Part shown: one piece after another, positions 6,001 through 9,000 of the stretch | Position numbering within the stretch: the first letter of the stretch is position 1 | Layout of the letters: each line of letters starts with the position of its first letter | Position numbers: made by a program | Source of the DNA: a virus | Taxonomy: Duplodnaviria; Heunggongvirae; Uroviricota; Caudoviricetes | Reading direction: 5' to 3' (one strand) | Length of the DNA: 16,503 nt | Virus record (IMG/VR): IMGVR_UViG_2703718806_000013

Positions 6001-9000
6001 TCGGGCTTTCCAGGCTTTGAAGGCCGCTGACTTGGAGTTACCACCAGCACGTTTGGGATATTCCTGCCAGGCCTGTTCAAATTCCGGTGAATATTCCTGT
6101 CGGGCAGAACGCGCTGGTGCAGACGCGTCAGCGGATGCGCCAATATCTTGCGGTTCATGTTTTGAATTTACTGGTGGTTCATGTTTTAAACCTTGTGGAT
6201 CTGGGGTCAGATTCTGAAGGGTCAAACGCGTATTTTTGCCAGAATCTGAAGGGTCAAACACACCTGAACATACAGATTCTGACGGTTCAGATTTTGAAGG
6301 TTCAGAATCTGAAGGGTCACGTAATACTGAAAGTCTGCGCTGCTGTTTCAGTTCTGCAACCTTATCCCGCTCTGTTCTGGCAAGCAGCTCAAGCCGATCA
6401 GCATTCAGATGATAAAGATTGGACGTATTACGGTTACCTTTGCGGCGTGACTGACGCGTCAGCCAGCCATCAGCCTCCAGTTCGGAGATTGCCATTCTGA
6501 CTGTACTTTCTCCCAACCCAAGCTGTCGGCATATGGTTTCAACACCTGGGTAGCACACCCCGTCATCATTCGAATAATCCGCCAAGCGCGCCATAATCAT
6601 CAGTTTTGCACCTTTGATGCCATATGCTGCACATGCATCCCAGACATTACCTAGGATTTTGCTACTCATACGGCACCTCCCAGACGCTTAAACATTTTTC
6701 CGGACTGAAACGCCACCAGCGGATAACTCAGGGTATGAGTACGTCCCTGAACCTGGCAGACAACCTTCTGGCTTTCTGTATTGACCAGGCAAACCCGCAG
6801 AACGTGTCCGTTGCTGGTGGTGAACCACTGCCCCACACGGGGGCAATGGTTGTATCGGTGATACAGGAAATTAACGATGTGGCGGATCATGGACGCACCT
6901 CCTTGTCAGAACCATTCAGCCTGGAATCAACAAGTGCGGCCCCAAAAACAGCATCACCTACACGGTCGTACAGTTTGCTGGCCAGCGGAGATTCAACAGC
7001 CTTAAGCATTGGATAAAGCTGGCTTGTCCAGATTTGATGGATTTCACGCAAATGCAGGTATACGCCTCTGGCGTTTCGTGCGACAGCTGACATATCAGAC
7101 GCATCGGCACCTGATAAACTCTTCTCCATCTGGTTAAAGGCATTGATGTATGCCTCTTTGAACCGGGCAGCACGTTTACCAGTGAAGCCCATAGCAAGAA
7201 ACGCAAAGCCGTCGCGGGTTATTTGATAGCAAGGAAGTTTGCGGCCTGTGCAATCGGTGTAATCACTCACCGAAAAATTGCGGGCAGTGAATGATGCGGA
7301 ACATTCAAGCGTGCGGATCTTTTTCAGTACATCGTCATGACGTTTGGAGAAGAAGTTGGCAACAGCCAGGGATGAAGTAACAGCCTGACCATCAACGATG
7401 GCAATTTCAGGTTGAGTGAGGGTTGGGATCGTAGCCATGATGGCAGCCTCTTTGGTGATTTTTAATAACTCACCACCAAGGCTTTCCACGACCTTATTGG
7501 TGGTGAGACGTACAGGGGTGGAAATACCGGTCACCAAAGAACCCGGCCCAACCGAAGTTGGCCCTGCACGCCCCACCATAATTTGGGCGTAATGCTGCTC
7601 ATGACACAAAAAAACCGCAAAAGCGCGGTTGTGCGCTTTGGTGAATTCCGGGTTTCCACGCCCGGCACCCGCTTTATAAGGTGCCTGAACAGTGTAACGT
7701 CCCGAAATTGAGGAATCAATATTTTGGAGAACAATCATGCAGCACCCGCCAGTTCTTTATCGTGGGTGAATTCGCCATTCCAGTTTCTCTTCATGGGTAA
7801 TGCACCTCTAAGATACTGGCGATAAATCCAGACCGCCCCTTTCTGGAGAAGAACTGGTGTATACGAATAAAACCCTTCTTCATAACCTGAATCGATATAG
7901 TGGTGACGTTCGGTCAGATACAGATCTCGGGCATATGCCTTTACACGCCATGCGGGGCTTCGCGATTCAGGACGCTCGTCATAAAGCCAGTTGTGAGCCT
8001 CCAGAAATGCTGTGATACGCTGAACATTTACTCCATTAAGTTGCTTGCAGAACTGAACCGGTGTCATGCCAGGCTGGAATAAATTTTCCAGATGTTCGAT
8101 GTATTGGGCCTGACGATGAACGTAACTAATTGCTCTGTTTTTAGCCTCATATTCATCCGCCCAGGCACGGGCAGCAGCAGCCGGATCGCTAAAATCTGGT
8201 AGGGATGTCATTGTGGTAAGACTGTAATTCCCCGTTTTACGAATTGACGGAATTACCTCCGATGTAATCCACCGTTTAAAACGTCTTGCCTGTTTTTTTC
8301 GACTTTTGATAATCAGCGCATAGAGCCCGGATTCATTGACCAGCAAAGGCTTACGTCCCGAACCTAAGTAATCCTTATATTCGGTTTTATCTTCATCATC
8401 GATGGACTGAAGGGAGATAGCAGTATTTGTCAGCCCCAGCGCGTTACATATATCCACGGCAAAAAACCATGGTGTTGAATCAATGACCACACTACGAACT
8501 GATGACAACAATTCACCAGTGCTTGATTTAAAATCGAAAACTTTGATATTGTTTTTCACGTAATATCTCCGACGATAAACCCGACTGGCCGGTTTTCTCT
8601 GCCGGCCTTTCTTATTTCTGCCAACCAATAACCTGAAATACCCCCATTTTCGGGTAATACCAGCGAGTCCCTCGCGGTTCTGCTTCCTCCATAACCCGAT
8701 AAAAAGCAGCCATAAACGGTTCCACAGCAACAATTGCGCGACGAGACAACAATCCATCCGGCCTCATGAACTCATGGGGGTCGGTAGGGATCTGATATGC
8801 GTTCACCAGATTGCGGCATTTCGCATCTGACATACCCGTTTTCGCCGCCAGCTGACGATAGCCTGCATAACCATCACGTATGGCGCCTCTTTTGATTTGT
8901 TCGACAGTTTCAGTAACGTGGGTGACTTTCTCTTCCACCTGCTCAAGACGTCTTTGTTGGCGAACAGCTTCAAGCGCCATTGCAGCAACCATTTCGATCT

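What the first reader, a model, noticed from the sequence alone, without database searches (positions are those of the whole stretch)
6151..6320. Iteron array (putative replication origin) embedded in the initiator gene
Two copies of a 15-bp repeat followed by four imperfect 18-20-bp direct repeats at roughly 32-bp periodicity, all inside the central low-complexity part of the O-like initiator ORF, mirroring the lambda ori. The repeats encode the Ser/Asp/Pro/Glu-rich linker, so DNA-level constraint may be shaping the protein sequence.
Basis: partly seen in the sequence, partly recalled or inferred. Interest (0 to 1): 0.45.

Follow-up and report, generated by a model that had tools for sequence, protein, structure and literature searches.

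The report
Prophage replication origin inside initiator gene
A cluster of short DNA repeats in the middle of a prophage's replication-initiator gene is almost certainly the phage's replication origin, built like the classic lambda origin; this repeat motif was not found in the papers I could search, but the arrangement itself is textbook.

Summary
Window 6207-6319 holds five copies (not four) of CAGAWTCTGAAGGKTCA. Their 11-bp core TCAGAWTCTGA is palindromic, and the spacing is 32, 33, 15 and 15 bp. Window 6146-6200 is the least stable stretch of the gene and holds two GGTTCATGTTTTRAA copies 24 bp apart. All of this lies in the 303-aa initiator gene (5758-6669, minus strand), in the part predicted to be a disordered linker.

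Selection acts on the DNA, not the peptide:
- One copy is read in a different frame (LQNLT instead of SDS/SES).
- In 53 non-redundant homologues from other Enterobacterales, third codon positions are 85% conserved in the distal iteron/AT block, against 54% in the DNA-binding domain.
- The core occurs at 21.8 per kb in this zone and 0.04 per kb outside it.

The array travels with the N-terminal winged-helix domain only. That domain is joined to several unrelated C-terminal domains, including a lambda-O-type one, and the mosaic junction lies at 6145/6146.

Best reading: an origin with the lambda architecture, with cognate iterons followed by an unwinding element. The initiator is HTH_36, not lambda O (PF04492). 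It is a new member of a known kind, of modest interest, and no binding or replication experiment exists.

The parts
5758..6669 (-). Replication initiator gene (303 aa) that contains the origin
   Evidence: ORF. Pfam HTH_36 at aa 17-70. PHROG 270 'replication initiation protein', E 2.6e-78.
6406..6669 (-). N-terminal winged-helix DNA-binding domain (aa 1-88), the presumed iteron reader
   Evidence: AF2 model shows H-H-H-H-E-E with pLDDT of about 76-89. Foldseek gives only generic winged-helix matches, including the RepA_N initiators 4pql/4pt7/5kbj, with E of 2e-3 or weaker. This is the only part that is always inherited together with the repeats.
6319..6402 (-). Long helix, aa 90-117; possibly a dimerisation element (inference)
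   Evidence: AF2 secondary structure H90-117. Present in the window clade; the other clade goes straight from the winged helix into the repeats.
6302..6312 (.). Iteron core 1, TCAGATTCTGA (first in gene orientation; first unit of the 15-bp tandem array)
   Evidence: Frame 0, encodes SDSE.
6287..6297 (.). Iteron core 2, TCAAAATCTGA (tandem unit)
   Evidence: Frame 0, encodes SKSE. This unit varies in copy number between E. coli prophages.
6272..6282 (.). Iteron core 3, TCAGAATCTGT (tandem unit)
   Evidence: Frame 0, encodes SESV.
6239..6249 (.). Iteron core 4, TCAGATTCTGG (isolated copy, with flank TTTGACCCT)
   Evidence: Frame 0, encodes SDSG.
6207..6217 (.). Iteron core 5, TCAGAATCTGA (isolated copy, with flank TTTGACCCT), next to the AT-rich block and read in another frame
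   Evidence: frame 2, encodes LQNLT. It is homologous to the universally conserved 'TTTSACCCGYCAGAATCTGG' copy of the other clade, where it is read as PSESG.
6146..6200 (.). AT-rich block, the presumed DNA-unwinding element, with two 24-bp-spaced repeats (6152-6166 and 6176-6190)
   Evidence: GC 32-35%, the minimum of the gene. Holds the least stable 50-bp window of the ORF, in the top 1.2% of region 3451-9325. Homologous block in 56 loci: 65% AT against a 51% background, and usually two GATC sites.
6145..6146 (.). Mosaic junction between the cassette (N-domain, iterons, AT block) and the C-terminal domain
   Evidence: 21 of 24 phage records match only window 5758 or 5825 to 6145. 200 of 257 E. 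coli genomes with a hit do not hold most of the 6100-6669 query, and every such record listed matches only 6100-6145. In L003 the same C-terminal half continues into another N-domain with other repeats.
5758..6145 (-). C-terminal domain of the initiator, presumed to recruit the loader and helicase (inference)
   Evidence: AF2 helices at aa 195-272. PHROG hits to 'DnaD-like helicase loader / replication protein' C-terminal parts. In the phage records inspected it is followed by a loader-helicase gene pair: phiP27, and the Eru7 phage Stx2_14040, whose gene lengths match.
4848..5738 (-). DnaC/IstB-like helicase loader gene
   Evidence: Pfam IstB_IS21 1.9e-15. NCBIfam DnaC 2.7e-44, below the curated cutoff. 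Start ATG at 5738 behind GGGGAGGG.
3451..4851 (-). DnaB-like replicative helicase gene
   Evidence: Pfam DnaB_C 3.3e-74. TIGR00665 3.6e-93, below the curated cutoff. Start at 4851 overlaps the loader stop.

Best explanation
Window 6146-6322 is most likely the replication origin of a lambdoid prophage of E. coli. It lies inside the gene of its own initiator, as in lambda.

Proposed mechanism (inferred):
1. Dimers of the initiator's N-terminal winged-helix domain bind the five palindromic TCAGAWTCTGA iterons at 6207-6312 and form an O-some-like nucleoprotein complex.
2. This complex strains and opens the adjacent AT-rich block (6146-6200), which has two 24-bp-spaced repeats.
3. The initiator's C-terminal domain then brings in the phage's own DnaC-like loader and DnaB-like helicase, encoded immediately downstream.

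Because the origin lies in the stretch that encodes a disordered Ser/Asp/Glu/Pro linker, the DNA sequence is selected as a binding-site array and the peptide is largely its by-product.

What is shown: the repeats, their dyad symmetry, selection at the DNA level, co-inheritance with the N-domain, and the lambda-like layout. What is inferred by analogy: binding, unwinding, helicase loading and origin firing.
For: 1. Clustered, non-random repeats: 8 hits against 0.20 expected. Each has an 11-bp palindromic core suited to a dimeric winged-helix protein.

2. Selection acts on the DNA:
- One of the five copies is read in a different frame.
- The iteron next to the AT-rich block is in frame 2 in the window clade and frame 0 in 71 other loci.
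- In 53 non-redundant loci the third-codon-position major-allele frequency is 0.85 in the 63-nt distal iteron/AT block, against 0.54 in the N-domain and 0.50 at invariant 4- or 6-fold-degenerate residues.
- Ser-x-Ser pairs picked by peptide alone in the linker use TCA...TCT in 140 of 201 cases; elsewhere in the same ORFs that pair is not among the eight commonest of 47.

3. Specific location: the core (up to 1 mismatch) occurs 179 times in 8.2 kb of 'ori zones' and 14 times in 349 kb of flanks, 21.8 against 0.04 per kb.

4. Co-inheritance with the DNA-binding domain only. The same N-domain and iterons are joined to:
- BLAST clusters of C-terminal domains, among them a Phg_2220_C type and a lambda-O type that fall in one transitively linked cluster, plus the window's own type and L008's;
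- 12 clusters of downstream genes;
- 9 clusters of upstream genes.
Conversely, the window's C-domain occurs with other N-domains that carry other repeats.

5. Lambda-like anatomy: the first iteron core starts at nt +358 of the gene, against +349 for lambda iteron 1. An AT-rich block follows on the promoter-distal side, then the domain junction.

6. The Providencia homologue L020 combines this N-domain and iterons with a C-terminal domain 38% identical to lambda O residues 140-276 (E 1e-28). The family therefore sits in the O slot of O/P-type replicons.

7. A 40%-identical HTH_36 'O' in phage phi24B has its own three palindromic 21-bp repeats at the same relative place, +289 to +354.

8. PMC8022706 states that lambda, P22 and L each carry different iterons inside their O/18 genes.

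9. The linker is predicted to be disordered exactly over the repeats.
Against: - There is no experimental datum for this family: no footprint, no ori cloning, no replication assay.
- The AT-rich block is only moderately unstable (35% GC; 5.6th percentile of the whole window).
- With a 15-bp spacing, neighbouring dimers on the tandem units could clash, so occupancy of all sites is uncertain.
- The N-domain shows no sequence similarity to lambda O. The fold match is to generic winged-helix proteins only, with E of 2e-3 or weaker.
- Plasmid records that carry homologues are prophage circles or mis-assigned chromosomes. They give no evidence of autonomous replication.
Confidence: 0.8

Rival explanations
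1. The repeats are real binding sites for the initiator's N-domain, but they serve autoregulation or copy control (titration, handcuffing, a transcriptional roadblock within the operon). DNA unwinding and replication would start elsewhere in the prophage.
For: The DNA-level conservation and co-inheritance with the N-domain prove a cognate cis-site, not origin firing. The AT-rich block is not extreme for the window. Less stable AT-rich stretches exist elsewhere, for example 1182-1231 and 12895-12944.
Against: The AT-rich, GATC-containing block is conserved with the iterons as one unit across genera. The core motif is essentially absent elsewhere in 349 kb of flanks, so no second iteron cluster marks another origin. 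Every characterised O-type system cited in the papers I read places ori at this position.
Confidence: 0.07
2. The array binds some other factor, either a host protein (SeqA/Dam at the GATCs, IHF, DnaA) or another phage protein. Alternatively it is a recombination hotspot that promotes exchange of replication modules.
For: Two GATC sites lie within 75 nt in 42 of 56 loci, against a background of 0.30. A sharp mosaic junction sits at the edge of the block. GATCCACA in the window clade resembles a DnaA box at 7 of 9 positions (my reading, not tested).
Against: Upstream and downstream genes are unrelated among loci that share the array, so no other phage protein co-varies with it. A host-factor site would not need to change when the N-domain changes, yet loci with other N-domains have entirely different repeats at the same place. 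The window itself has lost two of the three GATCs that phiP27 has, while keeping the iterons.
Confidence: 0.07
3. It is only a low-complexity peptide linker (PS[DEK]S[ED] repeats) that expanded by replication slippage. The DNA similarity of the copies would reflect recent duplication and concerted evolution, with no cis-acting function.
For: Units are 15 bp, or 5 codons, and vary in number between close relatives: 2, 3, 4 and 6 tandem copies in L005, the window, L002 and L004. Protein lengths step by 5 aa. The region is predicted to be disordered.
Against: One copy is read in another frame, and that out-of-frame state is fixed in a whole clade. Synonymous positions are conserved between genera whose N-domain synonymous sites are saturated. 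TCA...TCT codon pairing occurs in 70% of Ser-x-Ser pairs picked by peptide alone. The isolated copies share the extra flank TTTSACCC, which is not part of the tandem unit.
Confidence: 0.03
4. The palindromic units act at the RNA level, as hairpins in the mRNA that affect translation or stability, or as DNA cruciforms, rather than as protein-binding sites.
For: Each unit is a palindrome, and longer imperfect inverted repeats exist, such as 28-nt arms at 75% complementarity.
Against: There is no compensatory change. The G-to-A variant at core position 4 occurs in 76 units, and its partner at position 8 stays C in all of them. No Rfam family matched at E up to 1. Stems of 5 bp with a 1-nt loop are not foldable hairpins.
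Confidence: 0.02

Closest known systems
Bacteriophage lambda ori (four 18-bp iterons plus an AT-rich region inside gene O)
   Same: - The origin lies inside the initiator gene, in the linker between an N-terminal origin-binding domain and a C-terminal recruitment domain.
- The first iteron core starts at nt +358 here, against +349 for lambda iteron 1.
- Each iteron has internal dyad symmetry.
- An AT-rich block lies on the promoter-distal side.
- A recombination or mosaic junction lies just beyond it (misc_recomb features).
- The region is transcribed as part of the early operon.
   Different: - The N-domain family is different: HTH_36 (PF13730) against Phage_rep_O (PF04492), with no BLASTP similarity.
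- The iteron is different: TCAGAWTCTGA core against lambda's TCCCTCAAAACGAGGGA type.
- There are five sites, three of them a 15-bp head-to-tail array with variable copy number.
- The partner genes are a DnaC-like loader plus a phage DnaB, not lambda P hijacking the host DnaB.
Origins in P22 gene 18 and phage L gene 18 (P22-like phages)
   Same: PMC8022706 states that P22 gene 18 has four repeats of about 20 bp, and that L gene 18 has six imprecise repeats of an 11-bp sequence (TGTCCAACGGA). Both lie inside the initiator gene, next to a DnaB-type helicase gene (gene 12). That is the same logic, with an 11-bp repeat in L as here.
   Different: The repeat sequences differ. I did not test protein similarity to P22 or L gp18. 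Those modules have no separate DnaC-like loader.
Eru7-type replication region of Stx phages (type phage Stx2_14040, LC567818; PMC8951638)
   Same: The window shares with this phage the C-terminal half of the initiator at 99.5% identity over 5758-6145. The order of Rha-type regulator genes upstream and loader-helicase genes downstream is also the same.
   Different: The N-terminal domain and the repeats are replaced by an unrelated cassette. L003 has 12-bp tandem TAxTCTCTGxxG units and TTTCCC...GGGAAA-type repeats. In both Eru papers I read, the search terms for origins and repeats gave no relevant hit.
phiP27 gene L17 and the O-family genes of SfII, SfIV and related temperate phages
   Same: These are true homologues. 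phiP27 L17 is 91% identical at the nucleotide level, with the same five cores. SfII, SfIV, Klebsiella and Yersinia phage proteins are 56-64% identical in the N-domain. Chromosomal homologues of the same identity range carry the same cores.
   Different: In those records the gene is annotated only as 'helix-turn-helix domain-containing', 'O family', 'DNA replication protein O', 'replication protein O' or 'primosomal protein'. The one record whose feature table I read (phiP27) lists no ori or repeat feature. The 2002 phiP27 and SfV genome papers could not be read.
Iteron plasmid origins (RepA/pi/RepE type) and the DUE 13-mers of E. coli oriC
   Same: They combine directly repeated initiator sites with an adjacent AT-rich DUE. 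The AT block here consists of 24-bp repeats that usually begin with GATC, reminiscent of the GATC-initiated oriC 13-mers. The comparison with oriC rests on my own knowledge.
   Different: The plasmid origins lie outside the rep gene and use tandem WH1/WH2 monomers. There is no sequence relationship, and no evidence of Dam or SeqA control here.

Membership tests
Lambda-type origin architecture (ori embedded in an O-type initiator gene) | A cluster of at least three repeated initiator-binding sites (iterons) inside the initiator ORF, between the DNA-binding and recruitment domains | tested here: met
   Five copies at 6207-6319, 8 hits against 0.20 expected. They lie between the winged helix (aa 1-88) and the C-domain (aa 191 onward).
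Lambda-type origin architecture (ori embedded in an O-type initiator gene) | Each iteron has internal dyad symmetry | tested here: met
   The core TCAGAWTCTGA is a 5+1+5 palindrome. The commonest natural variant, TCAAAATCTGA, is imperfect.
Lambda-type origin architecture (ori embedded in an O-type initiator gene) | An AT-rich unwinding region directly adjacent to the iterons on the promoter-distal side | tested here: met
   6146-6200 has 32-35% GC and holds the least stable stretch of the ORF. The homologous block is 65% AT in 56 loci. The instability is moderate, not extreme.
Lambda-type origin architecture (ori embedded in an O-type initiator gene) | Iteron sequence is specific to, and inherited with, the N-terminal domain, while the C-terminal domain matches the helicase-loading partner | tested here: met
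   The N-domain and iterons stay constant across several C-domain types, and the window's C-domain is paired with other N-domain/repeat cassettes.
Lambda-type origin architecture (ori embedded in an O-type initiator gene) | The initiator binds the iterons and the fragment supports initiator-dependent replication | not testable with these tools
   Needs EMSA or footprinting and a minimal-replicon assay. None was found in the searchable literature.
Lambda O protein family (Pfam Phage_rep_O, PF04492) | N-terminal domain matches PF04492 or is detectably similar to lambda O | tested here: not met
   Pfam gives HTH_36 and no PF04492 hit. BLASTP against lambda O finds no homologous alignment. Lambda O itself hits PF04492 at 5.7e-36.
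HTH_36 'O-like' phage replication initiators (PF13730; PHROG 270) | N-terminal HTH_36 winged helix above the Pfam gathering score, and a PHROG replication-initiator match | tested here: met
   PF13730 scores 43.3 bits against a cutoff of 25. phrog_270 E 2.6e-78.
HTH_36 'O-like' phage replication initiators (PF13730; PHROG 270) | Located in the early operon, immediately upstream of helicase-loader or helicase genes | tested here: met
   DnaC-like loader at 4848-5738 and DnaB-like helicase at 3451-4851, directly downstream on the same strand.
Iteron-plasmid Rep origins (RepA/pi/RepE) | Rep protein with tandem WH1-WH2 domains, and iterons outside the rep ORF | tested here: not met
   The model has a single winged helix. 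The iterons lie inside the ORF. The search of solved-structure sequences finds only FadR at E 0.06.

The most novel reading that the evidence does not exclude
The origin may be more than a lambda look-alike, in two ways.

1. The tandem 15-bp iteron array changes copy number between nearly identical E. coli prophages (2 to 6 units seen directly). This could act as a fast-evolving rheostat that sets replication efficiency, incompatibility between co-resident prophages, or induction burst. That is relevant to Stx phage output.

2. The conserved pair of GATC-initiated 24-bp repeats in the unwinding block could place firing under Dam/SeqA control, as at oriC. The window's own variant has lost two of the three GATCs that phiP27 has, and so might have escaped that control.
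Probability: 0.15. Interest if true: 0.5.

Novelty: new member of a known kind. Interest (0 to 1): 0.3.

Why it matters
The window belongs to a replication-module type that is common in E. coli and other Enterobacterales prophages, including Stx-converting phages such as phiP27 and Stx2_KH16-043. In the two Stx-phage classification papers I read (the 'Eru' types), searches for origin, repeat and iteron terms found nothing relevant.

A defined cis-element gives three practical things:
- A concrete target for replication assays: five TCAGAWTCTGA cores plus a conserved AT/GATC block.
- A marker for annotating origins in homologues of this initiator. The search found 80 such loci, and most carry the element.
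- A clear natural example of a DNA-binding-site array dictating the sequence of a disordered protein linker, with the same site read in two frames.

It does not change what is known about how such origins work.

Tried and rejected
- **Rfam scan** of 5600-6900 at E up to 1 gave no hit, so the RNA-element idea was dropped.
- **Promoter and terminator scan** of 5600-7000 found no promoter-like site and one terminator-like site outside the repeats. There is no sign of an internal promoter.
- **Plasmid search**, looking for evidence that the cassette drives autonomous replication, gave 24 records. The small ones are circularised prophage pieces (an e14-like element, and a lambdoid fragment), and the large ones are megaplasmids or mis-labelled chromosomes carrying prophages. 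The result is uninformative.
- **Solved structures by sequence** gave only FadR at E 0.06. Foldseek of the AF2 model gave only generic winged-helix proteins at E of 2e-3 or weaker. No specific structural relative emerged. The model is poor overall (mean pLDDT 60.6, pTM 0.36), so it was used only for domain boundaries.
- **A false lead.** I first took the 40%-identical phi24B/Min27 'O' for the lambda-type O protein whose iteron binding was shown in PMC7466680. It is not: it is another HTH_36 protein. The 'P27' phage of that paper has a lambda-like O and is not phiP27.
- **Literature.** The motif strings were not found in any relevant paper. The phiP27 and SfV genome papers could not be opened, so earlier mention of these repeats cannot be excluded.
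- **Covariation** between recognition-helix residues and iteron variants in the Providencia/Proteus subgroup, which has degenerate tandem units, was looked at only by eye. It was too noisy to use.
- **DnaA-box resemblance** (AGATCCACA, 7 of 9) in the window clade was not pursued, because the majority clade has GATCCGTCA there.
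Full report
**What is in the sequence**

The finding lies inside a 303-aa ORF on the minus strand (5758-6669).
- Its N-terminus is a winged helix of Pfam family HTH_36 (43.3 bits against a cutoff of 25).
- The whole protein matches PHROG 270, 'replication initiation protein' (E 2.6e-78).
- Directly downstream on the same strand lie a DnaC/IstB-like loader (4848-5738) and a DnaB-like helicase (3451-4851).
- Upstream lie Rha/Ash and Bro-N regulator genes.
- The window is an E. coli prophage. Window 6100-6669 is 99.8% identical to a stretch of the E. coli UC4224 chromosome, and 57 of 5,426 complete E. coli genomes hold most of that query.

**The repeats**

The repeat finder and a degenerate-pattern search show five direct copies of CAGAWTCTGAAGGKTCA at 6208, 6240, 6273, 6288 and 6303, spaced 32, 33, 15 and 15 bp.
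- Counting both strands there are 8 matches, against 0.20 expected in the whole window. None of 200 shuffles reached 8.
- TRF picks up the 15-bp tandem part.
- Each copy has an 11-bp palindromic core, TCAGAWTCTGA.
They sit 24 bp apart in the GC minimum of the gene (32-35% GC).
- That minimum holds the thermodynamically least stable 50-bp window of the ORF, in the top 1.2% of region 3451-9325 but only the 5.6th percentile of the whole window.

**DNA site or peptide repeat?**

This was the key question, and four results answer it.

1. In the window, four cores are read as Ser-Asp/Glu/Lys-Ser (frame 0). The fifth, at 6207-6217, is read as Leu-Gln-Asn-Leu-Thr (frame 2).
2. A scan of one genome per species found 80 loci across Enterobacterales with an N-domain 55-86% identical to this one. 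Almost all carry the same core 2-8 times at +297 to +500 nt of the gene. In 56 non-redundant loci the core (up to 1 mismatch) occurs 179 times in 8.2 kb of this zone and 14 times in 349 kb of flanks.
3. The copy next to the AT-rich block, together with that block, forms a 63-nt stretch with consensus TTTGACCCGYCAGAATCTGGSGGGGATCCGTCAGTAAATTCAAAACAAGATCCATCAGATAAA. It is in frame 0 in 71 loci and in frame 2 in the window clade. In 53 non-redundant in-frame loci its third codon positions are 85% conserved. The figure is 54% in the N-domain and 50% at invariant 4- or 6-fold-degenerate residues.
4. When Ser-x-Ser pairs are picked by peptide alone, 140 of 201 in the linker use exactly TCA...TCT. 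In the rest of the same ORFs that pair is not among the eight commonest of 47.

Slippage does occur. Close E. coli relatives have 2, 3, 4 or 6 tandem units, and protein lengths step by 5 aa. But slippage cannot explain conservation between genera, or the use of two frames. The selected object is DNA.

**Whose site is it?**

Across the homologous loci, the N-domain and iterons stay constant while everything else varies.
- They are joined to BLAST clusters of C-terminal domains. These include a Phg_2220_C type, a lambda-O-type domain (Providencia L020; 38% identity to lambda O residues 140-276, E 1e-28), the window's own type, and L008's.
- They are joined to 12 clusters of downstream genes and 9 clusters of upstream genes.
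- Conversely, the window's C-terminal half (5758-6145) recurs with other N-termini. Of 24 phage records, 21 match only up to 6145. Of 257 E. coli genomes with a hit, 200 do not hold most of the 6100-6669 query, and every such record listed matches only 6100-6145.
- In one of these, Stx2_14040, the sequence beyond the junction is a different N-domain with different repeats at the same place.
- A 40%-identical HTH_36 'O' in phage phi24B likewise has its own three palindromic 21-bp repeats at +289 to +354.

The only partner that always travels with the TCAGAWTCTGA array is the N-terminal winged helix. This is the pattern expected of a cognate protein and site pair. It argues against a host-factor site or a site for a neighbouring phage protein.

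**Not RNA, not a promoter**
- No Rfam family matches.
- No promoter-like site is found.
- The commonest natural variant (G to A at core position 4, in 76 units) is never compensated at its palindromic partner. Hairpin pairing is therefore not what is conserved.

**Comparison with lambda**

In the lambda record the four iterons lie at nt +349 to +433 of gene O. They are followed by an A-rich stretch and by annotated recombination points. Here the cores run from nt +358 to +463, followed by the AT-rich block and then the mosaic junction at 6145/6146.

The AlphaFold2 model is poor overall (mean pLDDT 60.6). It gives a confident winged helix (aa 1-88), a long helix (aa 90-117), pLDDT below 50 for aa 118-190, and a small helical C-domain. 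The disordered stretch corresponds to window 6100-6318, which is exactly where the repeats lie.

The architecture is therefore that of lambda ori. The protein is not a lambda O family member. BLASTP finds no homologous alignment, and the Pfam families differ: PF13730 here, PF04492 for lambda O. Foldseek returns only generic winged-helix proteins.

**Mechanism proposed**

Dimers of the N-domain bind the palindromic cores and build an O-some-like complex. This opens the adjacent AT-rich block. The C-domain then recruits the phage's DnaC-like loader and DnaB-like helicase. All of these steps are inferred by analogy. What is shown is the cis-element, its selection at the DNA level, and its genetic linkage to the DNA-binding domain.

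One feature I cannot explain is the 15-bp spacing of the tandem units. It is about 1.4 helical turns and seems tight for adjacent dimers. The sites at 6208, 6240, 6273 and 6303 are roughly in helical phase (32, 33 and 30 bp apart), and the 6288 copy is out of phase.

In most homologues the AT-rich block consists of 24-bp repeats that each begin with GATC. Two GATCs fall within 75 nt in 42 of 56 loci, against a background of 0.30. The window has GAAC at two of these positions where phiP27 has GATC.

**What is known already**
- The principle is textbook. PMC8022706 states that lambda, P22 and L each have different iterons inside their O/18 genes.
- PMC7466680 documents O-iteron binding for lambda-type Stx phages. 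Its 'P27' phage has a lambda-like O and is not phiP27.
- For the present family (phiP27 L17; the O-family genes of SfII, SfIV, and Klebsiella and Yersinia phages) I found no description of the origin. The motif strings occur in no relevant paper.
- The phiP27 record lists no ori or repeat feature around the gene. The other phage records show only product names under the match.
- In the two papers that classify Stx-phage replication regions, searches for origin, repeat and iteron terms found nothing relevant. The window's module matches their Eru7 type phage, except for the N-domain and iteron cassette.
- The 2002 phiP27 and SfV genome papers could not be read, so earlier mention cannot be ruled out.

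**Verdict**

It is a new member of a known kind. Confidence that it is the prophage origin is about 0.8. Interest is modest (0.3). The comparative evidence is unusually clean and useful for annotation and for Stx-phage replication work, but a specialist would not be surprised.

Noticed in passing
window 6145/6146; L003 3388/3389: A sharp mosaic junction lies in the middle of the initiator gene. The C-terminal half (5758-6145) is 99.5% identical to the Eru7-type Stx2a phage Stx2_14040. Beyond the junction the N-terminal half and repeats are unrelated.
   Followed up: yes
window 6451-6462 and 6120-6131: A perfect 12-bp palindrome, CTGACGCGTCAG, and a near copy, CAGACGCGTCAG, bracket the origin region 319 nt apart. 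Both are also present in phiP27. Lambda ori also has a palindrome beyond its AT-rich region (from my own knowledge). This may be chance.
   Followed up: partly
window 6152-6190 compared with L001 4326-4370: In both 24-bp AT-rich repeats the window (and Stx2_KH16-043) has GAAC where phiP27, L004 and L005 have GATC. Most homologues in other genera keep two GATC sites here. This could mean loss of Dam/SeqA input.
   Followed up: partly
L002 4440-4500; L004; L005: The number of tandem 15-bp iteron units differs among closely related E. coli prophages: 2 in L005, 3 in the window and phiP27, 4 in L002 and 6 in L004. Database proteins run from 298 to 328 aa in 5-aa steps.
   Followed up: partly
L078, L084 (E. 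coli chromosomes); L086 (OR902858, a 15.2-kb circle): A 455-aa protein in L078 and L084 keeps the first 90 or so residues of this N-domain but continues into an unrelated sequence without iterons. L086 is an e14-like element (icd, mcrA, hin and tfaE genes) that carries a homologue of the N-domain. From memory these look like the e14 ymfN-type fusion, a decayed replication module.
   Followed up: partly
proteins P0001-P0032: Many database entries of this family are 'partial' proteins of 66-190 aa. In the ones I aligned, several end inside the repeat region. This suggests that short-read assemblies often break at the iteron array.
   Followed up: no
L088 1730-1795 (phage phi24B gene 'O'): A distantly related HTH_36 initiator (40% identity in the winged helix) has three palindromic 21-bp repeats, GGGGCAGGAGCTGCCC, at the same relative position. 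It is followed by a large gene annotated as P with a Gp4D-type helicase region. This is probably another unannotated origin.
   Followed up: partly
L020 (Providencia sp. PAZ2) 3001-4047: A natural chimera: this family's N-domain and iterons are fused to a lambda-O-type C-terminal domain (38% identity, E 1e-28).
   Followed up: yes
window 4848-5885 (ORF list): The mechanical ORF for the loader (345 aa, TTG start) overlaps the initiator gene by 128 nt and is probably over-extended. An ATG at 5738 preceded by GGGGAGGG gives a 296-aa product that matches the 891-nt gene annotated in Stx2_14040. The helicase likewise probably starts at 4851.
   Followed up: yes
L058, L065, L069, L073, L085 (Providencia, Proteus): In this subgroup the tandem units are degenerate (for example TCAAATCCTGA, TCAAATTCTGT). 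The isolated copy is recognisable as CCAGAATCTGG in L058 and L069, altered in L073, and not found in L065 and L085. This is either a drift in specificity or decaying prophages.
   Followed up: no
window 6666-6890 (-): A 74-aa ORF overlaps the initiator start (PHROG 1153, unknown function, no Pfam hit). In most homologous plasmid records listed this slot is annotated as a DUF4222 gene instead.
   Followed up: partly
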